Part shown: in pieces, positions 28,683 through 59,920 of the stretch
Numbering within the stretch: the stretch's first letter is position 1
Layout of the letters: each line of letters starts with the position of its first letter
Position numbers and translations under genes: made by a program
The notes under the pieces: model-generated
Seen by the model: the letters and a program-made list of their open reading frames with translations, nothing else
Told to the model about the DNA's origin: nothing
Database searches by the model: none
NCBI GenBank assembly: GCA_964016885.1
Contig: OZ024742.1
Location: 190,898,001 to 190,962,000, forward strand
DNA from: Eledone cirrhosa
Taxonomy: Eukaryota
Reading direction: 5' to 3'
DNA length: 64,000 nt

Positions 28683-28863
28683 AACGAAGCAAGTGTGGAC
28701 CATAACGCACCAGATTACTCAATATTTAGTGTAGTAGAGTGGGTAATAGGAGAATGTTTAACCCCGACAGCAGAACTCAAGCCGTTTCGATGGCTATTTC
28801 TGGACTCGAGTCCAGACATAGCCGTCGAAACGGCTTGAGCTCTGCCGTCGGGGTTAATTGTTT

Positions 28864-28867
<4 letters not shown>
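28683..28867 (-). mobile_element. Short family A hairpin copy (diverged)
   Basis: Tail + 3' half of the HHR, with fold-back at CTGGAC-TCGA-GTCCAG. Confidence 0.8.
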
Positions 28868-28914
<47 letters not shown>

Positions 28915-29690: not shown

Positions 29691-29888
29691 AACGAAGGAA
29701 ATGTGGTAAGGAACCAGGTGGACCATAACGCACCAAAGTACTCAATACTTAGAGTAGTAGAGTGGGTAATAGGAACGAGTAGGACCCCGACGGCTGAGCT
29801 CAAGCCGTTTCGACGGCTAATTCTGGACGTCCAGAATTAGCCGTCGAAACGGCTTGAGCTCAGCCGTCGGGGTCCTACTCGTTCCTAT
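29691..29888 (-). mobile_element. Short family A hairpin copy
   Basis: Perfect palindrome centred on CTGGAC|GTCCAG plus tail, in (TA)n. Confidence 0.85.
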
Positions 29889-29904
29889 ATATATATATAT
29901 ATAT

Positions 29905-31530: not shown

Positions 31531-31604
31531 ATATATATATATATATATATATTTGTGTGTGTGTGTATGTATGTGCGTGTGTATATCTATATGAGTGGCA
31601 GGTA

Positions 31605-31682
<78 letters not shown>

Positions 31683-31685
31683 TGT

Positions 31686-31763
<78 letters not shown>

Positions 31764-31930
31764 TTGTGTGTGTGTATTTGTGTATCTGTGTCACTGCGTG
31801 CATTTCGTATCATTATATCGTTAGTGACATTTAACATATCACATAACTCCTATAAAAACACATCGACGTTCCGCTATTCCTAGTGTCTTGGTTAATGAGA
31901 GCACTGATGCTTTCCATTCATTTTCCAATA

Positions 31931-31984
<54 letters not shown>

Positions 31985-32270
31985 GTGTGTATGTGTTTAT
32001 GTATGTATGCAAAAAACTGTCGTTTGACCGAAAGCGTAAAGAAGCCCGAATCGAAATATCAAATTCAATCTCGATCCCACCAAATGTACCTGAACTTGAC
32101 ACCAGGACCCAGCCATATTACTTTAAAACTAAACCTTGACATACACACGCATACGTACATATATACATGCATACATAATTACATATATATATACACAAAT
32201 ATACACCCCCCCACACACAGATACATATATATATATATTTATAAACAAACAAATATATATATAATAATAC

Positions 32271-32355
<85 letters not shown>

Positions 32356-32360
32356 TAGAT

Positions 32361-33089
32361 AGATAATTTAATATATCAACTAACATAAGCGCACATATGC
32401 ACGCCTATGCCAGCAAATACACAGGTTATGTCATAGTACCTAGGTGGTTCAATGCAGGAGGATGCAGAACAATAATATAAAAGACGTAAAATAAGAAAAT
32501 CTTTTTCAAAAAAATTTTTTTAAAACATTTTTTACTTACTTACTTAAATTTTCACTCCAACTAATTAGTTTCTGCAATGGGATAAAGACAGTTACGTAAT
32601 CTAACTGTCGAGAATTCATTGCGTCATCAGGGAGTCTATTCTCAGCTAAGTCTCCAGGCAATGCGCGGACACTGGCGGCTCATATAAAAATAATAATAAT
32701 TCGGTAGATGGAACTGCTGGCGAGGACTGAATTCCATGCACTGAAATCCTCACTGCTTCTAGTCAAATGGCCGATTCTAAAGAATCAATCACGTGACACA
32801 GAGGCTAGTCAGAAGGAATGGGATGGTAAGATGACTGACGCCTACTAACACCCCCCCAAAAAAATTTTTTAGAAGTGGTTTTGGCAGGTTTGCTCGACAA
32901 ATCAGTGATTTGGAGATAAATATAGATAATTTAATATATCAACTAACATAAGCGCACAGATGCACGCCTATGCCAGCAAATACACAGGTTATGTCATAGT
33001 ACCTAGGTGGTTCAATGCAGGAGGATGCAGAACAATAATATAAAAGACCTAAAATAAGAAAATCTTTTTCAAAAAAATTTTTTTTAAAA
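32361..33089 (-). mobile_element. Retrozyme-like partial tandem (family D), period 563 bp
   Basis: ~165-bp direct repeats 32361-32525 / 32924-33089, no ORF, one HHR, microsatellite flanks. Confidence 0.75.
32554..32635 (-). ncRNA. Type I HHR with extended stem II
   Basis: ACTCC-CTGATGA-C-GCAATG..GACAGTTA-GATTACG-TAACTGTC..CATTGC-A-GAAA-CTAATTAG-TT|GGAGT. Confidence 0.82.
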
Positions 33090-33104
33090 ATATATATATA
33101 TATA

Positions 33105-33705
33105 TATATCATAAAACATGTCTATAGAATCACCAGATAAAATATATACCATTTCCTCTCCCAATTAGCATAATCAACTATATAAAACATCGAATAGACC
33201 AGGCTATAAGAATAAGGCTTCTATGAAGAAATCCCCAACAACTACCCGAAACTAGCCCTTCGCGTCGGCTGCGACGGAATATTTATTGAATATTTATTGA
33301 ATGTATTCTCGGCGCGATCACTTTGGAAAATTTAATGTCTAGATTAGAGCAAACTCCTGAAGAGTCCGATGCTAGAATTTCCGAATATATTGGAAATCTC
33401 AAAATGCGGACGAAACCATGGTAGAGGTAAATAAATGTATTCTCTTTTCTCCTAGTTTATTTTACACCTAATTCTGTTTAATTAACTGTATATCTGGGCG
33501 ATTACGCTGTCGAAATATTCAATAAATATTCCGTCGCAGCCGACGCGAAGGGCTAGTTTCGGGTATTTGTTGGGGATTTCTTCATAGAAGCCTTATTCTT
33601 ATAGCCTGGTCTATTCGATTTTTTATATAGTTGATTATGCTAATTGGGAGTGGAAATGGTATATATTTTATCTGGTGATTCTATAGACATGTTTTATGAT
33701 ATATA
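33105..33705 (+). mobile_element. Hairpin element (family E) with the HHR in its loop
   Basis: ~190-bp arms 33105-33295 / 33514-33705. Confidence 0.8.
33354..33426 (+). ncRNA. Type I HHR with extended stem II
   Basis: CTC-CTGAAGA-GTCCG..ATTTCC.AATAT.TTGGAAAT..CGGAC-GAAA-CCATGG-TA|GAG. Confidence 0.8.
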
Positions 33706-33794
33706 GTTCTGATTATTTAATTTATTAACTTTTCATTGAGCCACAATGTGACCCGTTGCAAAACACGTATATGTATATATATATATATGTAAAC

Positions 33795-33931
<137 letters not shown>

Positions 33932-34711
33932 GAAAGATTTGAATGGATACAGTTTAGTTGAAAGGAATTTATTGACACGTGTTTCTATAACAGTTACATA
34001 ACCTAAAACAGCTATCTACAAACTTTTAGTTATGCAGACATTCAATATTTCAATGTTATTATTTACTGTCATTTCATCATATATATATATATATATATAT
34101 TGTTGGGCGTTTTAAAGTCTCGCTATTGCTGTAGCCAAGACTACTGAAGCAAACGTCGTTCATATATTATGTGAACTATTAATGTTTCACTTCAATAACT
34201 ATTCAGATGCTAACAGTCCTTACATTGTTACTAATTGTAGGTCTTCCGAAGGCCTTAATCTCGAGTCAATGCACCATCAATGAAGGCTTCACCATTACGC
34301 CGTGTGTTCTGTCACATGTAAATACGTAGACGTAGCAGAGCAGATAATTTCTTACCAAACTGGAATTTGTGGGAAGGTGGTGGACTATGTGTCATCTAAT
34401 TCTTCAATCGAGAATCAAACCTATATCCAAGGATCAATTGCCAGGGGCTTACAATAGATAATCATTACTCAACCGCACGATGAATGAGCGAACGTAAATC
34501 CTTATTCTCTTAACAATTCCGTTACATTATTTCCAAAGATATCTCTAAATATCTTAATCATAATAACGCTGATATTTAGAGCAAAGCTTAATTGGTCCAT
34601 TACGATATTTCTAGTGAGAGAGACTGCCTATGAGTTATAATTAAATTTGAAAATATTTAAGATTACGGAAGGATTTGGTTACTTCGTAATTATTCTGTTG
34701 GGGTTTAGCGC

Positions 34712-35545
34712 GTTGGATTTGCAGAATCGGTAGTGCGTCGCAAAGCATACTCTGTGGTGTAGAGTTATTTTCTGAATTCAAATTTCTCCGACGTTAACTA
34801 AGCCATTTGTCCTTTATGGTATCGATGAAATAAAGTTCCTGTATCGCACTGGAGTCTATTTACTCGGCTTCCCTTCCCTCAAGTTGTTGAGATTGTGCCT
34901 AAATCAGAAATCTTTAAATAATTGTTTCTACATTAGGCACAAGGCCATCAATCACCCAGTGCATTACTGGTACTTTATTTTATCGAACCCGTAAGGATGA
35001 AAGGCAAAGTCAACCTCGGCTGGATTTGAACTCAGATCGTAAAGGGACGTAACTATGCTGGAAAGCATGGCGTCCGACCCTCTACCTATACTGCCAATCC
35101 ACCACCCAAGAAATCTGTAAATAATGGTTTCTGATTTAGGCACAAGGCCATACACTTTTGTGGAAGGGGATGTAGATTAAATCGACCCCCAGTGCGGGAC
35201 TGGTACATTATTTCATTGACCACAACGGGATTTGAACTCAGAACTTAATAGGCCATAACTCTATGCCAGGAAGTACGATGTCCGGTGCTCTACCGATACT
35301 GTCAATAACTGCACTTATATCAATAAATAATTGTTTTTAAATTAGGCACAAGGCCAACAATTTGAGGCGAAGGGGAAGTCGATTTAATCAACCCCATTGC
35401 GTGACTGGTACTTTATTTTATCGACCCAGTAAGGATGAAAGGTAAAGTTAACCTCGGCGGGATTTGAACTCAGAACGTAAAGGGCCATAACTCTATGCTA
35501 CTAAGCATGTTGTCCGACCCTCTACCTATACTGCCAATCCACTGT
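34712..35545. mobile_element. Cluster of four Deu/Nin SINEs (one plus, three minus)
   Basis: Core and tail motifs; duplications AGAAATCT(T/G)TAAATAAT and TATCAATAA(A/C)TAAT. Confidence 0.8.
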
Positions 35546-35883
35546 CCCCTTCTATCAATAACTAATGCTAAAAATTATGTATGCACTAAGCATCACATTT
35601 TTAATTAATAAAAGAAGGGAAACACTCAAAAAGAAAATAACCAAACCGGAACCGGAAATGTAAAACAGAAGATGATATCACCAAAGAAAATTATGATACT
35701 CTATTACTCTATTACGTGTACCAGTTGAGAGGCTAAGGCCATGCTACGTCACCACCATTGATTAAAACAATATACAAGCAAAAATATTTCAAAATAATAA
35801 AATAACATGTGTGTGGTGGTAGTGTTATTTAAATGGCTAAAATAATGTGTGTATGTATGCATGATGTATGTATGTAAGTATGT

Positions 35884-38235
35884 TCTTCTGGTTTTATAAT
35901 TTCACAATGTTTTTCCCAATAGAGAGAGAGTCGGTTTCTAACATAGACACAAGACTCTCTCATTGGAATTTACACAACATCAACTAGGTAGATATGTATG
36001 TATGCATGTGTAGATATGGATGTTATTGTATGTGTGGATGTGTATGGTTTGAGTTGTATGTGTGCATGTTTATATGTTTTGTATCTGTACATGAGTATAT
36101 GCAGTTATTAGATGCAAAATTGTTGGAATGTTTTACATATTTTTACTGTTCCATTAATGGATTGTACTTGTAATTTCCTAACTAGTTGTGTTCTTTCTGT
36201 TCCTGTGAAGCCTAGCTTCTCAAAATTTGTATTCATGCAGTTACTAAAATATGCCAGTGCCCCAATAATCACAAGCATAAATATGAAGGTGTAATAAGGG
36301 TGGAGTATCTGCAGATTTCTCATCAGTTCTGCATAAATATTCTCCTTTTCGCTAATCTTTGATATTATATTGGCATCTGCTGGGCATCTAATTTCCACTA
36401 CTGTGCATGCTTTCGTCTCCCTGTCCCATATGCTAATATCTGGTCTGTTATGCCTGCATTTTATTGGGGTTTTTACTGGAACATTCCACCAATACTCTTT
36501 CATATTATGTACATGGATGTCTTCCACATTGCTGTAGCATTTAATGTGTTTATTATCGGGGATATCTCTTTTACGAACTGCATTGTACAGAGTTTTGGTC
36601 ACTACATCATGCTTCATAGGTAGATAGTACCGCGATGACATCTTTGGACAGCTGCTGATGACATTGGTGATATCTTCGATGTTAGTTCTGCAGAGTCTGT
36701 ACTTGTTATCACATCTAGGTGTTTTGCCTGCATCCCTATCTCTTTTGTGAATCAGGTATTTCGTGTTAATCTCCTGTTCTTGGATTGCAAAAGCATATCC
36801 TTCCAAGTGGGAGCCAATATAGCGGTTGTTGGTCCAAGTTAGACTACTTTCCTTATCTATATTACTCTCACTCTGGAGCTTCCTGGCAACATATTCATGC
36901 ATGATTTTTTGCTGATAAGCATGCAGTTTTATATCCAGGCATTCACTGCGATACTGCTGAGCGACTTCCCTGGGTGTGAGTTTTTCATTATCACACAGGG
37001 AATATCTCTCGATGAGTTCCTTCCCAACTCTCATGATCTTATCTGTTTCATGCAGATAGACTTGCTCGTGAGACGGGCTCCTACGCTTCGAGGTTCGTGG
37101 ATGTTGTCGGAGAGATATGATGCGACATTCAAATGCTGTCTGGACTGATGTTAGGCCTCTGCCTCCCTGCTTACGTTTCAAGTAAAGGCGGTCTATGTCA
37201 CTGTTGATGTGGAAGTTTCTGGTGTTGTTTAGTATTTTTGGAGTTCCAACATCAACTGCTCGGATTTCGTCTATCGTCCAATTTAGTATTCCGAACATCG
37301 GTGTTAGGACAGCCACTATTTTGTTTTGCGCAGAGAGTTCTGATGACCAAATCTTTTTTAATCGGGTGTAGTATTCCCTGGTTACGCGTTCCTTATTACA
37401 GATACCATTATAGGATATTTTCTCATGTATCCCCAGGTATCTGTAGTAGTCCTCATCAGATATTGGTGAAACAGTTAGGCCATTGATGACAATGTTGCTA
37501 GATTGGGTTGTTGTTTTTCCCCGCTTTACAGTCATGTATGAGCATTTATCTTGGCCAAACTCCATTCCTATATCCTTTGAGAATGTTGTAACCAGGTTAA
37601 GATTTTTCTTCATCCCATCTATGTTCTTGGCATAGAGTTTCAGATCATTCACAAAGAAATTATGGGTTAGTTTCGTATTTCTGTCCTCCTGTGAGCCAAT
37701 GATGTATCCTTCACATTTCTTGATCAGAAAGGACAAGGGGTTTAATGACAGGCTAAATAATATCACAGAGAGACTGTCTCCTTGAAATATACCCCTGCGA
37801 TATTCTATTTCATCAGTGAAAATAGAGTCCTCCTTCTCTGTCTTTAACTTTAGGATAATAGCCCAAGAAGAAGACAGCTTCTCTACGGCTCTGATAATAA
37901 TGTCTGGGACATTCTGGTATAAGTGTATCTCCCTTAAGAACTTGTTGGTAGAGGTCAGTAAGATACCTCCGATAGAATATCACTTTTTTGTATCAGTAGC
38001 CGACAATCATGTCTCTTCTAGGTGTTTTCTTATCTTGGAGTTTTCCTATCACAGTCTCAAGGGTACCCTCACCTATTTCGTATGTTTTTGTTGTAGTGTA
38101 GGAGCAGTAGTTCTTTCGGATGTCTCTTAGCCACACTGCAACTTGGTTGAAATTCTTCTTTTCACCCCAAATTTTGCTCCAAAAGGAATCTATGTCTTTC
38201 TGGGATACTCAGTGACACTTATTATTTTGTTGTTC
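35884..38235 (-). mobile_element. 5'-truncated R4/Dong-type non-LTR retrotransposon
   Basis: RT, Zn-knuckle and restriction-like endonuclease in that order; 3' UTR 36107-35884; (TATG)n flanks. Confidence 0.85.
36108..37810 (-). pseudogene. RT + degenerate CCHC + restriction-like endonuclease
   Basis: RGIFQGDSLS, HNFFVNDLKLY (altered YxDD), YRYLGI, RLYLKRKQGGRGL, RLC..EDIT.VISSC, HD.V and HNRPDI.IWD...C.VVEI.CP. Confidence 0.85.
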
Positions 38236-38328
38236 TATGAATGTATGTATGTATGTATGTATGTATGTATGTATGTATGTATGTATTTATGTTTGTACGT
38301 ATGTACGTAAGTATGTATGCATTTATAT

Positions 38329-38815
38329 AGGGTCACTCTTGAGTGCTACTGGTAACATGTAATCCAGTACAACCTGTCGCATGGTCGGATCGTCGGTGAC
38401 TAAATCGGCAATCCCACCAAGCTTACTTGGTGAGGAGGGGGATTTTTATCCCTGCAGGATAAAAAACAAAAGCTGAGAAAGGGCGAAACAACTCATGAGT
38501 CAATGGCCATCCAAAAATGTGTAAATAAGTATATGCGCGGGGACATAGAAATAATCGGGCTGTATAGCCGATCACGCGGTTAAATAACTGGGAGTGAAGG
38601 ACCGGTAGCCTTTGTCAGGGCATACTTCTATGAGAAGGCAACTCAGGAAACTGGGATAACTCCGACATAAAGCCTGCGGCTCAGTAGTTACCGATGATGT
38701 TGATCCTTTCTTCTTTTAGGGTTATAGCTACTGTCGCTCAGAGAGTGGGATTGGCTCAGTGCACAGTCTTTCCTCACTTTAAAAAAATCTTCACGCACAG
38801 GCATTGCACGATAAA
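38329..38815 (+). mobile_element. Older relative of the ~600-bp structured retroposon
   Basis: Colinear similarity with about 39051-39450. Confidence 0.7.
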
Positions 38816-38821
38816 CTTAAT

Positions 38822-38951
38822 TAATAATTCTGCTTTTATAATTTTATACATTTTTCCCAAGCAAGGAAACGTTGAGGTAAAATGTTGAAAGAGCGGGCTT
38901 CTAATATAGACACAAGACACTTTCATTAGAATTTAGACATCAACTAGAGAG

Positions 38952-38953
<2 letters not shown>
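38822..38953 (-). mobile_element. Second R4/Dong-type 3' UTR fragment
   Basis: Similar to 35884-35995 (TTCTAA.ATAGACACAAGAC, CATCAACTAG). Confidence 0.65.
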
Positions 38954-38982
<29 letters not shown>

Positions 38983-39050
38983 TGTATGTATGTATGTATG
39001 TATGTATGTATGTATGTATGTATGTATGTATGTATGTATGTATGTATGTT

Positions 39051-40330
39051 TGTCAGGTCACCAGTTGGTGCTACTGGTAACATGTATCCCAGTACAACCT
39101 GTCTCATAGTCGGGTCGTTGGCGACTAAACTGGCAACCCCACCAAGGTTTCTTGGTGAGGAGGGTGACTTTGGACATCCTGCAGGACTAAAAACAGAACC
39201 TGACAAAGGGCAAAGATCTCTTAAGAGTCAAGGGCCATCCAAAATCACCGGGAGAGATGACCCCTTAGCCTTTGTTAAGGCAGAATTCTAGGAGAAGGAA
39301 AACTCTGATATAACACATGCAACCCTGATGGTATACAATGATGTTGACTTGTTCTACTTTTTGGTAAATATCATCTTTGTTAAGAGAGTGGGACTGGTTT
39401 TGTGCAGTGCCTTTGCTCACCATAAAAGCTTCACGGCACAGGCATTGCTTTATGTCTGGAGATCACTCTGCACTTGTCGTCACATGGTAGCATGGGCCCA
39501 GCACTATGTGTCAATAATTGTCACAAGTGTAGTGTTTGTACCAAAGTTTTCAAGTCGCTGGCTGGACTAAAATGTCACACTCGTTCAGCGCATCGGTAGG
39601 GTTTCTCCTACATGGATATAAAGTAGTGGCTGTACTCGAAAACGAGTTGGCAGCCACCATGTATGTATGTATGTATGTATGTATGTATGTATGTATGTAT
39701 GTATGTATGTATGTATGTATGTATGTATTATGTCAGGTCACCAGTTGGTGCTACTGGTAACATGTATCCCAGTACAACCTGTCTCATGGTCGGGTCGTTG
39801 GCGACTAAACTGGCAACCCCACCAAGGTTTCTTGGTGAGGAGGGTGACTTTGGACATCCTGCAGGACTAAAAACAAAACCTGTCAAAGGGCAAAGGAGCT
39901 CTTAAGAGTCAATGGCCATCCAAAATCACCGGGAGAGATGACCCCTTAGCCTTTGTCAAGGCAGAATTCTAGGAGAAGGACAATTCTGATATAACACCTG
40001 CAACCCTGATGGTATCCAATGATGTTGACTTGTTCTTCTTTTTGGTAAATATCATCTTGGTTAAAGAGTGGGACTGGCTCTGTGCAGTGCCTTTGCTCAC
40101 TATAATAAGCTTCACAGCACAGGCATTGCTTTATATCTGGAGATCTCTCTGCACTTGTCGTCACATGGCCCAGCACTATGTGTCAATAATTGTCACAAGT
40201 GTAGTGTTTGTACCAGAGTTTTCAAGTCGCTGGCTGGACTAAAAAGCCACACTCATTCAGCGCATCGGTAGGGGTTCTCCTACATGGATATAAAGTAGTG
40301 GCCGTACTCGAAAACGAGTTGGCAGCCACC
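39051..40330 (+). mobile_element. Two tandem ~600-bp non-coding retroposons with (ATGT)n tails
   Basis: Copies 39051-39658 and 39731-40330; 3' stem-loop GTGGC..CTCG-AAAA-CGAG..GCCAC; a third 3' fragment at about 40506-40540. Confidence 0.8.
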
Positions 40331-40451
40331 ATGTATGTATGTATGTATGTATGTATGTATGTATGTATGTATGTACATATATGTAGATGTATATGTGCAT
40401 GTATATATATATATATTTTATTTCTTTTTATTTATTTACTATTATCATTAA

Positions 40452-40490
<39 letters not shown>

Positions 40491-40978
40491 ATTCTTTTTC
40501 GTGCAATGGCCATACTCGATAACGAGGGGGCAGCCATCATGTATGTATGTATGTATGTATGTATGTATATATGTATGTATGTATATATGTATGTATGTAT
40601 GTATAATGTATGTAAGTATAATGTATGTATGTGTGTATGTATGTATGTACTTAAGTATTTCAGTGTATATGTAAGTATACATGATGTATCGATGTATATA
40701 TGATGTATCGATGTATATATGTCTATTTACTTTGGGTGATGTCCAGAAAAAAAAATCTTGCCAGTTGGTACGTTTAGAAACATTGGTATTTGAACGATGA
40801 TATATGTAAATATGAATACTAACCAAGGTATTATTTCTAAATGAAGGATAGGCTGTCTCTTTGAATTGCTGGTGCGTACCAACGTTGGTTGGGGAGCTTA
40901 TTATATATATATATAAACACTCAGACACAGACACACGTACATATCGACAGATATAGGTAGAGGTGTTCAAGTATGAGT

Positions 40979-41027
<49 letters not shown>

Positions 41028-41029
41028 AT

Positions 41030-42078
41030 TATGTATACGTACATACATATATGTATACAGACGCACAGTAGTATGTATATATATACATACATGCACACAT
41101 ATATACATGTACGTATGGGATTACCGAACATTTATTATAATATTCGGTTTTTTTGTAAACAAACAGCCAGAATTAAGCCGTACAGTGTTCGGCAACCATC
41201 GTTGCCCTTTTGTTCAACACTGACAAAGGAACGATGAACTAGTTTCAAGCTTATTAGCTATCGTCAGCATCGTATACCTTCCTGTCAGATGATTGAACGT
41301 TTGAAAGTATATACTTTCCTTATGCATATTAACGGCTGGGCAGCCTAATTTGCATATCGAGTGAGTTAATCGGTGAATTAAACATATATGTCAGTGTTGA
41401 ACAAAAGGGCAACGATGGTTGCTAAACACTGTACGGCTTAATTCGGGCTGTTTGTTTACAAACAAACCGAATATTATAATAAATGTTCGGTAATCCCATA
41501 CGTACATATATATATATATGTGTGCATGTATGTATATATATACATACTACTATGCGTCTGTATACATATATCTATGTACTTATACACACTTATATTTAAG
41601 TATCAGCCGTACTAAGAGTGAGAAATGGAATTTCGTTTCATTCTTTTCCATTTATTGTTTTCGGTACGCCCGGCCGACTAACTCACACGATATGCAAATT
41701 AGGCTGCGCAGCCGTTAATATGCATAAGAAAAGTATATACTTTCAATCGTTCAATCATCTGACAAGAAGGTATACTATGCTGACGATAGCATATAAGCTT
41801 GAAACTAGTTAATCGTTCCTTTGTCAGTGTTGAATAAAAGGGCAACGATGGTTGCCGAAAACTGTACGGATTAATTCGGGCTGTTTGTTTACAAATAAAC
41901 CGAACATTATAATAAATGTTCGGTAAACCCATATGTACATATATATATATGTGAATGTATGTATATATATACATACTACTGTACGTCTGTATACATATAT
42001 GTATGTACGTATAAATACTTATATTTAAGTATCAGCCGTAATAAGAGTGAGAAATGAAATTTCGTTTCATTCTTTTCC

Positions 42079-42080
<2 letters not shown>
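41030..42080 (+). mobile_element. Family B: inverted arm plus head-to-tail tandem (period 429 bp)
   Basis: Minus arm 41030-41372; plus units 41388-41650 and 41651-42080; HHRs at 41232-41272 (minus) and 41775-41815 (plus). Confidence 0.82.
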
Positions 42081-42151
<71 letters not shown>

Positions 42152-42442
42152 CACATATAAATATATGTGTGTATGTGAATCGAATGACTGTATGCATGTT
42201 CATATATTATATGTTATATTGTGTGAACATGTTATCAACTGACTAGTGCCAGGTATGTATATCTGATCTTTCACACCAGCTGAAACTTTCACTTCCCTAT
42301 TGGCTTCCAGCCTCGATGTACCGTGGCAGAAGACCAATATGTTAATTAGAAAAATAAAAGACGAATAAAAAAACAATTAGAATAAAACATACAAAAAATG
42401 AAATGAATATAACCACAAACAGAATCAGGTACACATATGTAC

Positions 42443-42485
<43 letters not shown>

Positions 42486-42486
42486 A

Positions 42487-42815
42487 ACGGAAAAAATGAA
42501 ACGAATTTTCATTTCTCACTCTTAGTACGACTGTTACTTAAATATAAGTATGTATACGTACATACATATATGTATACAGACGTACAGTAGTATGTATATA
42601 TATATATATATACATACATGCACACATACATATATGTACGTATGGATTCACCGAACATTTATTATAATGCTCGGTGTGTTTTGTAAACACACATCCAGAA
42701 TTAAGCCGTACAGTGTCTAGCAACCATCGTTGTTCATTTGTTCAACACTGCCAAAGGGACGATGTACTAGTTTCAAGCTGATTAGCTATCGTCAGCAACG
42801 TATACCTTCCTGCCA
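42487..42815 (-). mobile_element. Family B copy with HHR at 42760-42800
   Basis: CGTTG-CTGACGA-TAGCTAATCAGCTT-GAAA-CTAG-TA|CATCG, followed by the family tail. Confidence 0.8.
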
Positions 42816-43099
42816 TATATATGTAAAAGTCGTATTTAATTTGTTGGAATTCCGACAAACACAAATGTTTATAACTGATTTAGAGCACTGAACAGTTTAC
42901 TGGAGTAAATATTCCATGATATTAAATAAATGGAATCTATATTTATAGAACCATATTTATTTTATTATATATATTTCAAGGGTAACCATGCCAACCTTGG
43001 TGCGCTTTCATCAGATAAAATACAAAGTTTTTTTTATAAATAAAGACGTACCAATGAAATCATACCTTATCGGTCGGAAATTCACTGGATAGTGGAAAC

Positions 43100-43166
<67 letters not shown>

Positions 43167-43206
43167 CGTGTGTGTATCTATATTATATATCTATCCATCT
43201 ATCTTA

Positions 43207-43318
<112 letters not shown>

Positions 43319-43330
43319 ATATATATGTAT

Positions 43331-43405
<75 letters not shown>

Positions 43406-43438
43406 TATATATATGTATATGTATATAAATATGTATGC

Positions 43439-43470
<32 letters not shown>

Positions 43471-43471
<1 letters not shown>

Positions 43472-43663
43472 GGTAAGTTATTCCGGGTTGAATGAAGAGG
43501 TAACCACAGTAAGTAAGGTACTCAATACATAGCAGAGTATAACAGTTTTAATATAGATGAGATTCTACAGGACTAGAACTGTTTCATTCTTTAGAAATCA
43601 TCCTGATGATTTCTAAAGAATGAAACAGTTCTAGTCCTGTAGAATCTCATCTATATTAAAACT
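43471..43663 (-). mobile_element. Family F short hairpin element with an HHR-like motif
   Basis: ~56-bp palindrome centred near 43602; CTGATGA-TTTC-TAAA-GAAT-GAAA-CAGTTCTAG-TC; relative at 56125-56245 (plus). Confidence 0.65.
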
Positions 43664-43671
43664 ATATATAG

Positions 43672-44391
43672 TTCCTATCTTTCCATTGCAATACAATCTT
43701 GGTTTGTTTACATGTCTCGCTCGCTTCACCCTGTTCTACTTGTACCAATAACTTTATTTAATTATTGCTCGCACCAACCAGAGGTATATGATTTTTAAAG
43801 CGATGAAATACTAATGAATGTTGGAAGATCACTGATGAAGGACTAATTTTATTCATATGTATCCCATGTGCAACCACGCAGCACTCCATTTTTAGTATAT
43901 TTATATTTTTTGCTCAGCTGCGACCTGCCTGTTTCTTTCTTACTGCTTCCCCTCTCTTTGTATTCTCACCTTCTTTTTACCCCCTCTGCCAGCTGGCCTC
44001 TTCCTCACACTTCCACTCTCTCACTCTCTGCTTCACGCTCTCTCCCACTTCCTCCCCTTTGACCTGTGTGAAATCCTTTTCTCTCTCACATCTCACCCAG
44101 GTTGGAAGGTCTGTATCTCTCGTCCATGATTTCACCAAGCTTAAGCTTATAGATATCATGTACTTGTTTCTTCCTATCTTTCCGTTGCAATAGCATCTTT
44201 GTTTGTTTACATGTCTCGCTCGCTTCACCCTATTTTACTTGTCCCAATAACTTTTCTTAGTTATTGCTCGCACCAAACAGAGGTATATGAGTTTTATAGC
44301 GATGAAATACCTTTGAAGGTTGGAAGATCACTGCTGAAGGACTAATTTTATTCATATGTAACCCATGTGCAATCACGAAGCACTCCATTTT
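43672..44391 (+). mobile_element. Family G partial tandem, period 499 bp
   Basis: 43672-43892 is repeated at 44171-44391; homologous to 55461-56097. Confidence 0.7.
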
Positions 44392-44557
44392 ATATACATA
44401 TACATGTAATCATATAAACATATGTTCATATACGTAAATAAATAATATCATACATATACTTTTAAACACACACATACACAGGCACGCACTCACTCACCCA
44501 CCCCCACACACATATATATATAAATACATATGTGCAAATAGATATAGATATATACAT

Positions 44558-44612
<55 letters not shown>

Positions 44613-44984
44613 TTTTTTTATTTTTTTAGTTAACTCTATTGACTGATTAATCGCTTAAGTTTATCTTAAAAACAACTCGGTCGAGAGCTAAATTCGTTTT
44701 GTGCTGTTTTTGCAAACTTTTGCAATAACTACACATGCTGAATTCACTGGCCAAAATAGGGGTTTCCTCCTCTTAGAACCTCACATGTGCTTTCATAACC
44801 TGTTAGATTCTGGCGCACGAGAGCAAAATGCCTGTTGAGAAAGCAATGCCTTGTTCGATCACTTAACCAAAAGCTGATTTTTTATAAGCAGACAGTATTA
44901 TTGATTCAGGTGTTGCAGAAACCCAAATATTGGAGTATTCCATCTTCCCCGAGGGTCAGGGTAACTATTTCAATCACATATTAT

Positions 44985-45191
44985 TTTGTTTGACCCGTTT
45001 AGCTTGTTCGCCTTTTTGGCTATGGTGGTTAATGGCTTCTTAACCATCGTCACAGTTTGTATGACCATTTTAACTTATTTTTATACCTCTGGTATCTTCT
45101 TCATATCCATAGAGCGCTTGTCTGCACAATATGGAAGTTGCGTTTCGCAAATTTCTACCCGCCGAAATGCGATTTTCGGTAAATTTATATT

Positions 45192-45234
<43 letters not shown>

Positions 45235-45898
45235 GTAGAACATGGGAAGGTAATATCCGTAATGGTAGAGCACTCAGTCCATGGGACGAGTATGGTAGAA
45301 GTAGTAACACAATAGTTAGTTTACCATACCGAGAACAATTGTTTCACCTTACCCCTCCATTCTCTCTCTCTCTCCCCCACCACCCCTATACTCCTCACAC
45401 CCTTTCATCCCTTGTTTATTTTTATTTTTATTTGTACTTTAAAAAAATTTCCTTTACTTTCTAAAAAAATGTTTTCCCTCCCTTTTCTCGGCCACCCTTT
45501 TTTAAATGTCTTTCCACCACTCGCCCACACACCCTTCGAACTCTCTTCCTACCCACTGTTCTCCTGGTGAAGGGCTTATGCCTGAAACGCCCCTCCCCCT
45601 ATTCTCAAGCGTGAAACTCAAAACAATATCATTTATACGGCGTCTCTGTTTTTTGTTCTCTTTTCATTTATTAAACTATATATTTAATCATTTATTTTGT
45701 TTGACCTGTTTAGCTTGATTTGTTTATTAGCTTAGGTGGTTAATGCCTTCTTGACCACTTTTTCAGTTTGTATGGCGTTTTAACATATTGTTTAGCTCTA
45801 GTTTTCTTAACTATTGGAGCGCTTGACAGCATTTCTACGATATTGCGTTTCGTTTCGCTTTTTCTACCAGCCGAAATACGATTCTCGCTGAATTTATA
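44985..45898 (+). mobile_element. Family H pLTR-like repeats with a degenerate HHR at about 45564-45590
   Basis: 44985-45190 resembles 45695-45898 and the reverse of 62643-62838; CTGGTGA-AGGGC-TTAT-GCCT-GAAACG. Confidence 0.65.
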
Positions 45899-46125
45899 TA
45901 TATATGTATATATATGCAAAAGTTCTTGATGTCTTCCAAAACATCCTTGATGTCTTCGAAAAGTAACGGTTGCATTTTGAAAGGGTACGTCAATATTTAT
46001 TTATAAAACTGGTATATATTGTATTTTGTCCGATGAAAGCATACCATAATTTAACATTGTATCCTTGAAATATGTATAAAAAAATAGATATGGTTTTATA
46101 AATATAGTTTCCATTTGTTAATATC

Positions 46126-46174
<49 letters not shown>

Positions 46175-46249
46175 TACATACATACAACAAACATGCATAC
46201 CAGTATATAATTTACTACTCATATACAAATATACACACGAAGACGTCAT

Positions 46250-46257
46250 GCTACTAT

Positions 46258-46299
<42 letters not shown>

Positions 46300-46303
46300 A
46301 ACG

Positions 46304-46374
<71 letters not shown>

Positions 46375-46384
46375 CACCACCACC

Positions 46385-46470
<86 letters not shown>

Positions 46471-46516
46471 CACCACCACCACCACCACCACCACCACCAC
46501 CACCACCACTACTACT
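46250..46516. repeat. (CTA)n/(CCA)n compound microsatellite
   Basis: Direct reading. Confidence 0.95.
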
Positions 46517-46759
46517 CCCATCTGCTAGGCGGTACACATATTTGTCATGTACTATGTTCGGGTTCATATTAAACCATCACGAATGTATTGTTCAAATTGT
46601 GCCTATTTCAAAGCAATTCTGCGAATATCAATTATTATCCTGCATAGTGTAATCACCTGCGTACCTAGATTCACAGATCAAAGCCAACATGTAGAAATTG
46701 ATATCGTAGGAGATGTATAGATTACTATCCGTTTATGTACCTACAAATACAACCACACG

Positions 46760-47961
<1,202 letters not shown>

Positions 47962-48667
47962 GTGTGTGTATTTATGTACGGACGTATATGTACTTTTTTC
48001 AATACACTTGACATAGTAATACATTGTTATTGTGTTTTAAGTCAAAAATAGTGTTACATGCACCTGCCCTCTTAAGCTCTAGAATCTTAATATTTTCTGT
48101 AGCTACGCTTTTTTACATAATACATCTCTTGATAAATTCTGCAATAATGATTTCTGCCACTTGGTTTCAACGCTGAGTGTTCCAACGGTGCAATTGACGG
48201 AAAAACGTGATCGTGAAATCTAAGTATAAATGGCTGAACTTTCCACAGACACGTGTACATTTAAAGTATTTCCAATGTTTCAGTGTGACATGACAGGAGG
48301 TATTGTGTTACAGGTATATCTTATATTTGTTGTACGAATTAGTACATTTGAGCAGAGTGAAACATATTTTCTCCTTCAAGGACACAAAAGGACATTTTCT
48401 CTTTCAAGGACATAAAACTCACAACGTTACATTATGAGCCGAATACCCAAACCATTACTCACACCCACACGCACGCACATATTCACACATGCTCACAGAC
48501 GCACATACACACACACATATGTATATATATCCATAATGTCTGACTGAATCCGCACCTGTGTTTTTCCTTTTATTTCAAGCGTTAATCTAATACATATCTT
48601 CAATATGTACTGCATGTATATATTTGTTTTGCAATGTTTTTTATATGAGATTGTGTGTTGAAACAAA

Positions 48668-48855
48668 TAATTGTTTCTACTTTTGACACAAGGCCAGCAA
48701 ATTACCCAGTGTATTACAGGTACTTTATTTTATCGACCCCGTATGGATGAAAGGCAAAGTTAACCTCGGCGGGATTTGAACTCAGAATGGCAAGGGCCGT
48801 AACTCTATGCGTCAAAGCATGGCGTCCGACCCTCTACCGATACTGCCAATCCACC
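48668..48855 (-). mobile_element. Full-length Deu/Nin SINE with a 12-bp TSD
   Basis: GAAACAAATAAT on both sides. Confidence 0.88.
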
Positions 48856-48874
48856 GAAACAAATAATGTTTATC

Positions 48875-48895
48875 AATGATTGACCAACGGTTAAA

Positions 48896-48962
<67 letters not shown>

Positions 48963-49327
48963 GTCTATCAAAGTTATTTGGTCACACATCTGTGACATCC
49001 ACAGTGGTACTATTATTTTTCCTACCGCTGTATTGTATGGCTACGCCATTTTTATTTTATTTATTTATTCTTGTCTGTGTCTCTGTTTGCGCATGCGTTT
49101 GCGTGTTTGTTTCCTGTTTTGGTGTGTGTAATTTTAACCGTTGGTCAAACAATGATGAATTAATTATGGATATATAAAAGACACAGAAGGGAAAACCAAC
49201 CCAAACCAAACAGTAAATGTGAACGATTATTATTTCTGGCAATATTATAACAATATGACCTTTCCCAAATATAACAATATATATATATATATAAATGAAA
49301 GGTATAGAAAATATTTTGTGCAAAAAG

Positions 49328-49417
<90 letters not shown>

Positions 49418-49500
49418 GTATATATATATGTATATATTGTTATATTTGGGGAAGGTCATATTGTCATAATATTGCCAGAAATAATAATCGAACACATAGG
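48875..49500 (-). mobile_element. Diverged, rearranged family C fragments
   Basis: Similar to 29908-30270; decayed HHR at about 48965-49008. Confidence 0.7.
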
Positions 49501-49556
49501 TCTGTTTAGACCTATTATATTAAATCTTTGTTGGTTTTATTCAATGAACAAATATA

Positions 49557-49690
49557 ATTATTTCTGATAACAGCATATATATGTGTAGGTATGTATATTC
49601 CTTCTGATAGTTTGTAAAAATTTTACATAGATCTATATGATATGCATACCAACACTAACATATATATCCTAGAAACGATCGTAAAATGAT
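49557..49690 (+). ncRNA. Long-stem-II HHR, second copy (core CTGATAA)
   Basis: Homologous to 61971-62109; GAAA-CGATCG-TA|AAATGAT. Confidence 0.65.
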
Positions 49691-51032
49691 GAATTTTTTA
49701 ATATAAGGAACTGTTTCTTTGTTTATTCATTATTTTTATTAATTTATCTTGTCTCTGTTTTCCTGTATTTTTCATCGAAAAAAATTTTTGAATACATCTC
49801 TTTTCATGATATTCGGATTATATTGAGTTCTTCATACGGATTGGACACTACCGTACATTTTGGTAGATTTATCTACATATATATATATATATATATACAT
49901 ATTTATTTATTTATTTATATAGTCTTATAGAATCTTAAAGAATCAGTGTTGCCTCATATATATATATATACAACTGTGTTTGAGTGTGTGAGCTTAAAAA
50001 TATAGAGAGATACAAGAGTCCCTCACTGGAAGAAAATGGCGTCGACATGCGAAGGAAATATTTATCTATTGGAATGTAATGTGATTAGAAAAGTGAATAA
50101 GTGCAACAATGGAATCCAGGTAATATGTCAATACAGGGAATCGAAGAAAATAGGGGAATGAATAAAAACGAAGAGGTATTTTTCATTAAGTTTCAAGCTA
50201 GAAATAATGAGAAAAGAAACCAGAAAAGAATTGAAGGGAAGGAAATAAGTTGAAGGTATTTGTTAGCGGATAATATATATTAGTTTCTGCTGAAACTGTA
50301 TATATGCATGCAATTTTGTATGTAGTGCATATATACGTATGTATGGAGGTATGTATGTATGTTTCTGTTTGTACGTACATATGTCTGTCTGTATGTATGT
50401 ATCTATGTACGTATATACGTATGTACGTATATATATATACACATGTATGCATGCATTCATTTTCATCACATATATAGGAGAAAGAAACACATGCACACAC
50501 CAGAGATAGGAATATATATATAAATAAATAAATAAATATATATATATATATATATAGTGAGAGATGGATACATAGATAAAGAGAGGGAGTGAGAGAGAGA
50601 GAGCAATCTGCTGATATTTTTGTGGGGAAAAAGCCGCATGAAAAAGTCCGTCTATAGCGAATCAAGATTACATTGAAAGCAAAATTGTTTTACTATGAAT
50701 AAAGAAGAATATATGTATGTGGGTACATATATATGCCATACCCCACACACACACGCATGCACAGACACACAGACACACACGCACACACATACATATATAT
50801 ATATACTCATATACATATCAGAACCTTGTAGATATTTTCATGTACGTATGCAGGCATATGTACATGGTGTGTTACATAAATCGTCATGTAACATTCGATA
50901 CAGTCGTATAGAAATAATTGGTTCTTTCGGAATCGACATCACCAAGATTGGAATAACCACATTACAAAGTTATACATACTGTCACACGTAAGCATGTACA
51001 AACCTCACATATACATATATATATATATAAAA

Positions 51033-51211
<179 letters not shown>

Positions 51212-51256
51212 TATACATATATATATACATATATATATATATATACATATATATAC

Positions 51257-51357
<101 letters not shown>

Positions 51358-51362
51358 TATAC

Positions 51363-51418
<56 letters not shown>

Positions 51419-51442
51419 GTATATATATATATATATAAATAA

Positions 51443-51485
<43 letters not shown>

Positions 51486-51494
51486 TATATAAAT

Positions 51495-51766
<272 letters not shown>

Positions 51767-56565: not shown

Positions 56566-56604
<39 letters not shown>

Positions 56605-56606
<2 letters not shown>

Positions 56607-59510
56607 CGAAGGAAAAATGGTAAGGAACCAGGTGGACCATAACGCACCAAAGTACTCAATACTTAGGGTAGTAGAGTGGGTAATAGGAACAAGTAAGACC
56701 CCGACGGCTGAACTCAAGCCGTTTCGACGGCTAATTCTGTACTGAATAAACATTTATTCTGGTATTTAAATAGCCGAGCTTATCAAGGGGTAATTCCATA
56801 TATGGTCAAAGAGATAATCACCAGGATTGGACACATCACAAGTTAGTAGTAAATCTGTGAAGGCAAATTGGTGGGGGAAGGGGTAGCTAAACCTGCCGGT
56901 AGGAGAGAAAGGGAGAGGGGGGGGGGGGGTAGACCCATTCATGCGTTGGTAGTGCCAGCTACAGCTGGGCGTGAGGTCAAAGAGGATACTGAGGAGGAGG
57001 AGGGGGAGGAAGTCGAAACGGTAAGTAGAACAATGGCGGGTAAAATTATAAAAGGTACTGAGAGAAAAAAAATAAATAAATAAAATAAAATAAGCAAAGT
57101 CTGGTTACTAAGACTTAAGTCTCTCGCTATTGCTAGGCTAAAGAAATACATAAATAAATAAATAAACTAATAAGTGAATAAAAGAATAGATAAATAAATT
57201 AAAAAAATATATATATATATAATGAAGAATAAAAAAATAAATAATAATAATAAACATAAACTAGGTGGGACGGAAATAAAGGGACCCTTATACGAGGTAT
57301 AAGTGCGTGTATCGTACGGTGACGGGTCAACAAGGGGGGGGGGGCCAAAATACTAAAGAGACTACCACGAAATAATAAAGGTTTCTGCCCCAATCACAGG
57401 GCCAGCAACCACCCAGTGCAAGAAAGTAAACTAGTACGAGAATATAATTCAGGGTCCCACAAAAAAATACTAGTGCTAACTCTAAGGGTACCGCCACGAA
57501 ACAAAAAGTCTTATACAAGCTACATGAAAGATCGTACGAAGTAAAAGTAAAGAACGGAAAATTAATACAGACCCCCCCCCCCCCCAAAAAAAAAAATAAA
57601 GGGAAAAAGAAGAAAGAAATACTGGATAAACGAGAAATTAAAGCAAAGATGCCACTAAGAAATATAGAAGGCACGGCAAAAAGGGACAGCGGTTTGGAGA
57701 AGGGCGCGAGTATCCGAAGTCTAACACCTCTGCTATAAAAAGCGGAGTCAGCCAAATCTATCATAGAATAGGGGAGGGGGGTGGGGGTGCTGAAGCTACA
57801 AGGGACCGAGGGGCTACCTCAAGTGGGCGAGAAAAAAACGACGGCAAAGAAATGGAACTGGGGTAGAAGGACTAGGGAGGGATGGGGGGGAGGAGGAAAT
57901 ATAGAGGAAGCGATAAAAGAATGTAAAAGAAGATCTTACGTCTCCATTGGCAAGCAGGGGTTATCCTTTACAAAATAGGCAAGTGGTGTGTTATAGCCCT
58001 AGTCTACCCCCCCGGGTCATTATGGGGTTGTACGGCGAGGTAAGTCCTACGTAATCGGTGTTTACATGCAGTAACCAGTTCATCTTTCTTGTTTGGGAGT
58101 TGGTCCGTCGAAAACTCCTAAACAAGAAAGATGAACTGGTTACTGCATGTAAACACCGATTTCGTAGGACTTACCTCGCCCTCAAACCCCATAATGACCC
58201 GGGGGGGGGGGGGGGGTAGACTAGGGCTATAACACCCCACTTGCCTATTGTGTAATGTGTAACCCCTGCTTGCCAATGGAGTCGTAAGATCTTCTTTTAC
58301 ATTCTTTTATCGCTTCCTCTATATTTCCTCCTTCCCCCCATCCCACCCTAGTCCTTCTACCCCAGTTCCTTTTCTTTGTCGTCGTTTTTTTCTCGCCCAC
58401 CCGAGGTAGCCCCTCGGTCCCTTGTAGCTTCAGTAACCCCACCCCCTCCCCTATTCTATGATAGATTTGGCTGACTCCGCTTTTTATAGCAGAGGTGTTA
58501 GACTTCGGATACTCGCCCCCTTTTCCGACCGCTGCCCCTTTTTGCCGTGCCTTCTATATTTCTTAGTGGCATCTTTGCTTTAATTTCTCGTTTATCCAGT
58601 ATTTCTTTCTTCTTTTTCCCTTTTTTTTTTGGGGGGGGGGGGTGTTTCTGTATTAATTTTCCGTTCTTTACTTTTACTTCGTACGATCTTTCATGTAGCT
58701 TGTATAAGACTTTTTGTTTCGTGGCGGTACCCTTAGAGTTAGCACTAGCATTTTTTTGCGGGACCCTGAATTATATTCTCGTACTAGTTTACTTTCTTGC
58801 ACTGGGTGGTTGCTGGCCCTGTGATTGGGTAGAAACCTTTGTTATTTCGTGGTAGTCTCTTTAGTATTTTGCCTCCCCCCCTTTGTTGACCCGTCACCGT
58901 ACGATACACGCACTTATACCTCGTATAAGGGTCCCTTGATTTCCGTCCCACCTAGTTTATTTTTATTATTATTATTTATTTTTTTATTCTTCATTATATA
59001 TATATATATTTTTTAATTATTTATCTATTCTTTTATTCACTTATTTGTTTATTTATTTATCTATGTATTTCTTTAGCCGAGCAATAGCGAGAGACTTAAG
59101 TCTTAGTAACCAGACTTTGCTTATTTTATTTTTATTTTTTTTTTTTTTCTCTCGGCACCTTTTACAATTTTACCCTTCATTGTTCTACTTACCGTTTCGA
59201 CTCCCCCCCTCCCCAGTATCCTCTTTGACCTCACGCCCAGCTGTAGCTGGCACTACCAACGCATGAATGGGTCTACCCCCCTCTCCGTTTTTCTCCTACC
59301 GGCAGGTTTAGCTACCCCTTCCCCCACCAACTTGCCTTCACAGATTTACTACTAACTTGTGATGTGACCAATCCTGGTGATTATCTCTTTGACCATATAT
59401 GGAATTACCCCTTGATAAGCTCGGCTATTTAAATACCAGAATAAATTTTTATTCAGTACAGAATTAGCCGTCGAAACGGCTTGAGCTCAGCCGTCGGGGT
59501 CTTACTTGTT

Positions 59511-59514
<4 letters not shown>
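56605..59514 (-). mobile_element. Family A long element: 2.9-kb non-coding hairpin
   Basis: Arms about 56683-58101 and 58113-59514, short spacer, extra tail 56605-56682, (TA)n on both sides; arms differ by scattered substitutions. Confidence 0.9.
59407..59500 (+). ncRNA. Type I HHR with U3-A8 core (mirror copy at 56698-56791, minus)
   Basis: ACCCC-TTGATAA-G-CT-CGGCTA..TAGCCG-T-C-GAAA-CGGCT-TGAGCTC-AGCCG-TC|GGGGT. Confidence 0.85.
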
Positions 59515-59565
<51 letters not shown>

Positions 59566-59786: not shown

Positions 59787-59902
59787 GCGAGGGAAAAGTG
59801 GTAAGGAACCAGGTGGACCATAACGCACCAAAGTACTCAATACTTAGGGTAGTAGAGTGGGTAATAGGAGTAAGTAAGACCCCGGGGTCTTACTTACTCC
59901 TA
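59787..59902 (-). mobile_element. Shortest family A hairpin copy
   Basis: Tail plus a palindrome centred at ACCCC|GGGGT (59883/59884). Confidence 0.85.
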
Positions 59903-59920
59903 TATATATATATATATATA

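What the first reader, a model, noticed from the sequence alone, without database searches (positions are those of the whole stretch)
56605..59514. 2.9-kb non-coding hairpin element with a U3-A8 hammerhead on each strand
Seen: 1.4-kb arms with no credible ORF. Each arm has a complete HHR: stem I ACCCC/GGGGT, core UUGAUAA, extended stem II, a stable stem III with a near-palindromic loop, and GUC (59493-59495). Established: C3-G8 is a tertiary pair, and U3-A8 is a rare compensatory variant that standard CUGANGA searches miss. Inference: the long form of a family with seven copies in 64 kb. The stable stem III may allow monomeric cleavage, and read-through would give long dsRNA.
Basis: partly seen in the sequence, partly recalled or inferred. 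Interest (0 to 1): 0.85.

Follow-up and report, generated by a model that had tools for sequence, protein, structure and literature searches.

The report
Penelope retrotransposon ends bearing ribozyme-cut footprint
The 2.9-kb hairpin is not a new non-coding element but two back-to-back truncated tail ends of a very common Penelope-type retrotransposon, and the extra find is that many copies in this genome start exactly at the predicted cut site of its unusual hammerhead ribozyme, which likely means the ribozyme really cuts in living cells.

Summary
The inverted repeat and both hammerhead-like motifs are real. Sister copies run 5' into a 717-aa RT plus GIY-YIG ORF with the Hydra-clade motifs of Penelope-like elements (PLEs), and the hairpin centre holds its last 34-36 codons. 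It is a 5'-truncated, head-to-head PLE insertion in (TA)n with a one-sided ~80-nt tail, a described layout (PMC8557442). U3-A8 is family-wide (4,480 exact copies) and already reported in Schistosoma PLEs (PMC4209133). It is not cleanly compensatory, since 1,504 copies carry C3-A8. Not found in my paper searches: genomic 5' ends pile up at the predicted scissile bond (382 vs 68 and 62 at flanking controls). In 184 places both arms end there. That class is depleted in subfamilies that are about half C3-A8 (6/49 vs 26/58 at a control site). This suggests low-level in vivo cleavage; an RT stall at RNA structure is not excluded, and cleavage itself was not assayed. New variant of a known kind.

The parts
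56605..58114 (-). Left arm: 5'-truncated 3' end of a Hydra-clade PLE (ORF end, ~1.4-kb 3' UTR with pLTR, long 3' end with tail)
   Evidence: 91.5% to positions 2281-3792 of full-length copy L033:5580-9371; 93.5% to L004
58113..59515 (+). Right arm: inverted 5'-truncated copy ending at the short 3' end, without tail
   Evidence: 90.9% to positions 2295-3709 of L033; 93.8% to left arm
58004..58114 (-). Last 36 codons and stop of the RT-endonuclease ORF, including the N..E..CxH motif
   Evidence: translation; the intact ORF has the same C-terminus
58115..58219 (+). Last 34 codons and stop of the same ORF in the right arm
58099..58114 (.). Head-to-head junction: left arm 14 nt longer, 2-nt overlap at 58113-58114
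   Evidence: alignment; starts 2281 vs 2295
59407..59500 (+). Type I hammerhead: stem I 59407-59411/59496-59500, core U3-A9 59412-59418, stem II to 59472, GAA 59473-59475, stem III 59476-59494, predicted cut after C59495
   Evidence: sequence; fold; positions
56698..56791 (-). Type I hammerhead of the left arm, predicted cut between 56703 and 56702
56606..56683 (-). ~80-nt PLE tail, present on one side only
   Evidence: contig ends at both tail boundaries followed by (TA)n in runs X1 and X4, and at the long end in X5
59515..59557 (.). (TA)n target, right flank (left flank 56569-56605)
59788..59903 (.). Minimal family copy: palindrome centred exactly on the predicted cut site (59883/59884), tail on the left arm only
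28695..51665 (.). Four more short copies (28695-28868, 29686-29888, 47461-47604, 51490-51665), 5'-truncated within stem II; plus a 51-nt tail piece at 6797-6847

Best explanation
The hairpin is a pair of 5'-truncated 3' ends of a Hydra-clade Penelope-like retrotransposon joined head to head in a (TA)n repeat, and it was likely made in one insertion event by the element's reverse transcriptase copying inward from both cut DNA ends. Shown: identity with the PLE 3' end, the ORF in sister copies, two alternative 3' ends ~80 nt apart, variable truncation points, and (TA)n targets. Inferred, by analogy with the Anolis PLE in vitro (PMC11167929): the GIY-YIG nuclease cuts both strands of AT-rich DNA, RT starts at two internal RNA sites (about 19 and 99 nt 3' of the ribozyme cut site), and the two cDNAs are joined at short overlaps. 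Also inferred: the U3-A8 hammerhead cuts a minority of transcripts after C17; RT then runs off the new 5' end, often adding one A, which gives the ~120-bp palindromes centred on the cut. Because a cut strands both RT start sites from the upstream unit, a weak ribozyme would be tolerated or favoured.
For: ORF: 717 aa; 22 of 150 listed hits have the 784-codon open frame; 6 fetched copies encode an identical protein; Hydra motifs present (vs PMC8557442 section 11). Layout: 29 other loci share the 3' end but not the centre. Of 258 distinct 3'-end contexts, 111 stop at the short end before a TA-like repeat, 104 after the tail, 7 run into the next unit, 36 other or unrecognised. A tandem array of 3,531-bp units is 99.97% identical. 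Depth rises from 8.7e3 to 3.1e6 toward the 3' end in run X1. Ribozyme: N7 takes all four bases while the core is kept in 141 of 146 hits. 5' ends at the cut: 382 vs 68 (4 nt upstream) and 62 (4 nt downstream). In the first 100 of 531 listed junctions, read by eye: 36 at the cut, 15 one base before, 27 over nine other positions, 19 indel artefacts, 3 unclear. 184 places have both arms ending at the cut; among the first 50, 20 have one extra base, A/T in 18. CCTAC-type subfamilies give 6 of 49 of those but 26 of 58 fold-backs at the loop III palindrome (Fisher p=2.7e-4).
Against: No biochemical or RNA evidence of cleavage. Fold-backs at the loop III palindrome (188) outnumber perfect ones at the cut (94), and C17-G1.1 is itself a 2-nt palindrome. 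4 of 7 window copies truncate in stem II. Copies starting at the cut are only about 4% of tail-bearing copies (382 vs 9,003 intact). A C3-A8 mismatch lineage reached 1,504 copies, so a paired core is not needed for transposition. The control group is mixed (5 C3, 4 U3 by cross-reading lists 45, 56, 63) and C3 copies are also predicted to misfold (median P 0.07, n=8, vs 0.75-0.87, n=39), which would equally remove a structure-based stall. In the Anolis PLE no RNA ends were seen at the cut site (PMC11167929). Pfam found nothing in the ORF. No tree was built.
Confidence: 0.9

Rival explanations
1. Same PLE origin, but the ribozyme is inactive and the pile-up of 5' ends comes from RT stalling at the stem I/III junction, or from joining at the CG microhomology.
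For: Stem III begins 2 nt 5' of the cut; fold-backs are frequent at other self-complementary sites (188 at loop III); C3-A8 copies amplified; C3 changes the predicted fold; HHR mutants do not affect PLE insertion in vitro (PMC11167929).
Against: Ends fall on G1.1 (36) more than on C17 (15, most also compatible with G1.1 by microhomology) or other positions; many have a base other than C before G1.1, so CG microhomology is not the cause (one search list); the single extra A/T base suggests run-off at a template end; free variation at N7 with a kept core.
Confidence: 0.3
2. The hairpin arose by fold-back self-priming of one cDNA (or of an antisense template) instead of priming at both DNA ends.
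For: The centre is nearly symmetric (14-nt offset, 2-nt overlap); self-priming was proposed for PLE palindromes (PMC3846280, passages); many short copies are perfectly symmetric.
Against: Offsets between arms range from ~20 to ~500 nt and reach kilobases (L034); a fold-back copy should include the tail, yet the second arm stops at the fixed short end.
Confidence: 0.3
3. A stand-alone non-coding hairpin element (foldback or retrozyme-like) that moves as a 2.9-kb unit and makes long dsRNA bounded by two ribozymes.
For: 1.4-kb arms with no long ORF; a hammerhead near each outer end.
Against: The centre is ORF sequence; no other of 29 loci shares the centre; sister copies continue into RT-EN; a read-through RNA would carry only one sense ribozyme, base-paired to the other arm.
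Confidence: 0.03

Closest known systems
Hydra clade of C-terminal EN+ Penelope-like elements (PMC8557442: section 11 read, passages, supplement parts 1, 2 and 7 of 59)
   Same: Single RT-EN ORF of ~700 aa; RW[K/R], DKT, CxCX5C linker, no CCHH, CxxC..E..N..CxH; (TA)n targets; pLTR hammerhead; partial tandems, inverted 5'-truncated copy, one-sided tail.
   Different: Unit 3.5-3.7 kb with a 1.4-kb 3' UTR (described Hydra mostly <3 kb); tail ~80 nt vs 30-40; core UUGANAA or CUGAGAA whereas all 26 Hydra rows of File S2 have CUGANGA (their descriptor sought canonical cores); stem III 6 bp vs 3-4; stem II ~50 nt.
Schistosoma mansoni Cercyon PLE min-HHRs with U3-A8 (PMC4209133, parts 1-2 of 4 read)
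   Same: U3-A8 in a PLE pLTR type I hammerhead, about 1,300 hits; pairs of HHRs on opposite strands 100-700 bp apart also noted.
   Different: Those are minimal motifs lacking stem III and thought to need dimers; here stem III is long with a palindromic loop, and a C3-A8 lineage coexists.
Anolis PAc (Poseidon) PLE in vitro (PMC11167929, parts 1-2 of 4 read)
   Same: Two internal RT start sites define the tail; AT-rich target; both strands cut and extended; HHR upstream of the start sites; HHR dispensable for insertion.
   Different: PAc HHR is canonical C3-G8, protein-assisted and overlaps the ORF start; no RNA ends at its cut were found. Here the ATG lies 190 nt 3' of the cut and genomic copies mark the cut.
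Non-LTR retrozymes (10.64898/2026.07.22.740005, part 1 of 5 read)
   Same: Type I HHR, PLE-derived, non-coding.
   Different: Retrozymes are short head-to-tail tandem units; this is a head-to-head truncated PLE that retains ORF sequence.

Membership tests
Penelope-like element (EN+) | Single ORF with RT followed by GIY-YIG endonuclease | tested here: met
   717-aa ORF with YRDD at 348 and GIY-YIG-type motif at 591 in sister copies; Atlas neighbours carry PF26215, PF01541, PF00078; local Pfam gave 0 hits
Penelope-like element (EN+) | pLTR formed by partial tandem; inverted 5'-truncated copy; one-sided tail | tested here: met
   L033, L037, L040 start with the 3'-end sequence; array; tally
Hydra clade | RWK motif and DKT in place of DKG | tested here: met
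   RLRWR at 35 (R for K), SDKT at 116; 95 and 118 of 120 homologues match, DKG 0 of 120
Hydra clade | CxCX5C linker; no CCHH; CxxC and CxH flanking E and N | tested here: met
   CNCPDRSIC at 572; one Cys between GIY and YIG; CNLCSEE at 670; N..E..CKH at 689
Hydra clade | Insertion in (TA)n | tested here: met
   215 of 258 3' ends are followed by a TA-like repeat
Hydra clade | Canonical CUGANGA hammerhead; length under 3 kb (typical, not diagnostic) | tested here: not met
   C3-G8 in 11 of 6,054 exact core matches; unit 3,531 bp
Hydra clade | Phylogenetic placement with reference Hydra RTs | not tested
   Reference sequences were only in a paper supplement; the N-terminus of Hydra-1_Obim looks alike by eye
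Type I hammerhead ribozyme | Three helices around the core, G10.1-C11.1, A15.1-U16.1, NUH triplet | tested here: met
   Helix pair probabilities 0.57-0.98 in both window arms; GUC at 59493-59495; a 2x1 internal loop follows G10.1-C11.1
Type I hammerhead ribozyme | Watson-Crick 3-8 pair conserved by covariation | tested here: inconclusive
   U3-A8 4,480, C3-A8 1,504, U3-G8 59, C3-G8 11; 11 is no more than A8G point mutants of C3-A8 would give (~20)
Type I hammerhead ribozyme | Self-cleavage after H17 | not testable with these tools
   Indirect only: 5'-end pile-up
Non-LTR retrozyme or foldback element | Fixed non-coding unit amplified whole | tested here: not met
   0 of 29 other loci share the centre; ORF remnant at the centre

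The most novel reading that the evidence does not exclude
This young, still intact Hydra PLE family records its ribozyme's activity in the genome: a detuned U3-A8 hammerhead cuts a few percent of transcripts, both RT start sites then run off the same cut end and leave ~120-bp palindromes centred on the scissile bond, while C3-A8 sister lineages largely lose that mark. That would be in vivo evidence that a PLE hammerhead cleaves, that cleavage costs full-length copies, and that both arms of PLE inversions are primed separately.
Probability: 0.55. Interest if true: 0.65.

Novelty: new variant of a known kind. Interest (0 to 1): 0.45.

Why it matters
As first described, the feature is ordinary: an inverted truncated PLE insertion. 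What PLE hammerheads do is open: PMC8557442 calls the function unclear, PMC4209133 notes no in vivo evidence, and PMC11167929 found no RNA ends at the cut. This family offers thousands of natural copies, an intact ORF, natural core variants and a countable footprint at the predicted cut, so both that question and the origin of the inverted, one-tailed layout become directly testable. It also shows that CUGANGA searches would miss nearly all hammerheads of an abundant family.

Tried and rejected
Rfam E<=1: only microsatellite-driven miRNA matches among 150 listed. The repeat finder was swamped by microsatellites. Pfam and PDB sequence searches of the ORF: nothing significant. No RNA holder listed, so expression, editing and dsRNA are untested; the three runs laid are contigs of unrecorded type and cannot show RNA ends. 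An early idea that 11 C3-G8 copies are an ancestral canonical lineage was dropped once 1,504 C3-A8 copies were counted. The idea that short copies mostly centre on the cut was rejected: 1 of 7 in the window, and loop III fold-backs are twice as common as perfect ones at the cut. Paper searches for a prior report of PLE 5' ends at the HHR cut: 0 papers; 5 listings, none read; listings; four papers opened. The library lacks most subscription papers, so absence is not shown; the Terminon, Perreault and Lunse papers (recalled) were not seen. PMC7151607 passage added nothing specific. Earlier findings of this scan: none. Supplements of PMC4209133, PMC11167929 and PMC3846280 were not opened and may bear on the U3-A8 and 5'-end claims.

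Full report
Observation. The window lies in a 3.0-Gb, microsatellite-rich genome (G000:C3). The inverted repeat is real: 56605-58114 (minus) against 58113-59515 (plus), 93.8% over 1,430 columns with 53 substitutions, both ends in (TA)n. The left arm has ~80 nt more at its outer end. Each arm has the hammerhead described, with GUC at 59493-59495; the three helices are the predicted fold, though z-scores are only -1.6 to -2.5. Seven family copies lie in the window. Rfam listed no hammerhead among 150 of 250 rows.

What it is. Thirty loci found with the left-arm end (the window's own among them) share the 3' end, differ in 5' truncation, and often carry an inverted partner that stops ~80 nt short. 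None of the 29 others folds back at the window's centre, and seven run past it. Ten 10-kb stretches showed that the sequence continues into an RT-endonuclease ORF, and full-length copies begin with a repeat of the 3' end, a pLTR. The hairpin centre itself encodes the last 36 and 34 codons. A protein search listed 150 hits, 22 with a 784-codon open frame; the ORF from the first plausible ATG is 717 aa, identical in 6 fetched copies, and one locus is a tandem array of 3,531-bp units at 99.97% identity with an inverted tailed piece at its 5' end. The window's arms belong to an older subfamily (91-94% to L033 and L004, 75-77% to the young unit). The ORF has RWR, DKT, YRDD, CxCX5C, no CCHH, and CxxC..E..N..CxH, the Hydra-clade set of PMC8557442; 120 listed of 2,049 homologues, mostly ~40% identical, largely share them. 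Pfam gave no hit; Atlas neighbours carry PF26215, PF01541 and PF00078. Of 258 distinct 3'-end contexts, 215 end at one of two sites before a TA-like repeat. Two exact 32-mers count 9,003 and 6,717 tail-bearing copies; 8 3' ends in 400 kb of arbitrary stretches from the four largest contigs suggest some 60,000 (rough). The inverted copy and one-sided tail are described PLE features (PMC8557442; PMC3846280), and two RT start sites explain the tail in the Anolis PLE (PMC11167929).

The ribozyme core. In 146 aligned hits (overlapping loci not removed), 141 keep UUGANAA, with N7 = U 80, G 56, A 3, C 2: the free position varies, as expected of a maintained hammerhead. Genome-wide exact counts are U3-A8 4,480, C3-A8 1,504, and G8 70, of which 59 U3-G8 and 11 C3-G8 by eye. 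U3-A8 is already reported in Schistosoma PLEs (PMC4209133); all 26 Hydra rows in File S2 of PMC8557442 are canonical with 3-4-bp stem III.

A footprint at the cut. The copy at 59788-59903 is a palindrome centred on the predicted scissile bond; 94 such exist, against 188 centred on the loop III palindrome, so symmetry alone proves little. Counting tail-bearing arms whose upstream bases are non-native gave 382 at the cut, 68 four bases upstream and 62 four downstream; about a tenth of the first 100 listed are G-run indels. In a 12-base window (531 matches, first 100 read by eye): 36 at the cut, 15 at -1, 10 at -5, 4 each at +1 and +2, 2 or fewer at each other position, 19 indel artefacts and 3 unclear dropped (36 of 78, p about 1e-17 against uniform). 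A script on the first 30 loci gave 11 at the cut of 25 non-indel. In 184 places both arms end at the cut with 0 or 1 base between; of the first 50, 30 have none and 20 one, A/T in 18, the pattern expected of non-templated addition at a template end (established for other RTs; recalled). As a natural control, CCTAC-type subfamilies (about half C3-A8: 5 vs 4 by cross-reading lists 45, 56, 63) give 14 of 56 assignable junctions at the cut after dropping 39 indel, 4 unclear-type and 1-2 other rows (Fisher p=0.018). They give 6 of 49 both-arm cases but 26 of 58 loop III fold-backs, one mixed locus dropped from each (p=2.7e-4). C3 copies are also predicted to misfold, so this control does not separate cleavage from a structure-induced stall. 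Copies need not all be independent events, and the patterns cover only some subfamilies.

Mechanism. Shown: PLE identity, two 3' ends, TA targets, variable truncation, the pile-up. Inferred: the protein cuts (TA)n on both strands, primes at two RNA sites about 19 and 99 nt 3' of the ribozyme cut, copies inward and joins the cDNAs; here both ran ~1.4 kb. Inferred at about 0.65: the hammerhead cuts a few percent of RNAs in vivo. The ATG lies 190 nt 3' of the cut, so a cut could also define the mRNA 5' end, but it separates the RT start sites from the upstream unit, which would favour a weak core. The long-dsRNA idea is untested.

Verdict. PLE of the Hydra type, confidence 0.9 (no tree built). 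The finding as posed is a known layout with a known core variant. The new elements are the non-canonical, stem III-stable hammerhead in a Hydra family, the amplified C3-A8 lineage, and the genomic mark at the cut, which my paper searches did not find reported. New variant of a known kind; interest 0.45.

Noticed in passing
window 20924-21590 and 41023-42818: Another inverted-pair family with canonical CUGANGA hammerheads on each arm (cores at 21143-, 21371+, 41267-, 42795-), in TA-rich flanks; likely another PLE.
   Followed up: no
window 29903-31488: Inverted pair with canonical hammerheads (30143-, 31248+) and a short endonuclease-like ORF end at 30316-30951.
   Followed up: no
window 24400-27950: A different Hydra-like element with inverted arms; a single U3-A8 minimal hammerhead candidate at 24528 (minus) with palindromic stem III but poor stem I, ~90 nt from a (TA)n end. 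May be an independent U3-A8 case.
   Followed up: partly
window 60469-61248 (+): 260-aa Hydra-type endonuclease C-terminus of another family.
   Followed up: no
window 9729-12099 (-) and 7813 (-): PLE-like RT ORF pieces and a downstream canonical hammerhead core.
   Followed up: no
window 36111-37979 (-); 14265-15715 (-): Non-LTR retrotransposon ORF fragments, R4/NeSL-like and AP-endonuclease type by eye, labels recalled.
   Followed up: no
window 59918-60218: 300-bp palindrome in (TA)n with a CUGAUGA motif on each arm but no clear stem II.
   Followed up: partly
L111-L112 (G000:C1:437198045-437214409): Array of four near-identical 3,531-bp units plus a truncated one; fits rolling-circle or multimeric-RNA copying.
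   Followed up: partly
run X5 (organism B): A second coded organism holds parts of the element, 23 of 30 bins covered, with the same long 3' end before (TA)n.
   Followed up: partly
window 28695-28868, 29686-29888, 47461-47604, 51490-51665: Short copies truncate within a ~10-nt zone of stem II, apparently the commonest truncation site; not counted genome-wide.
   Followed up: partly
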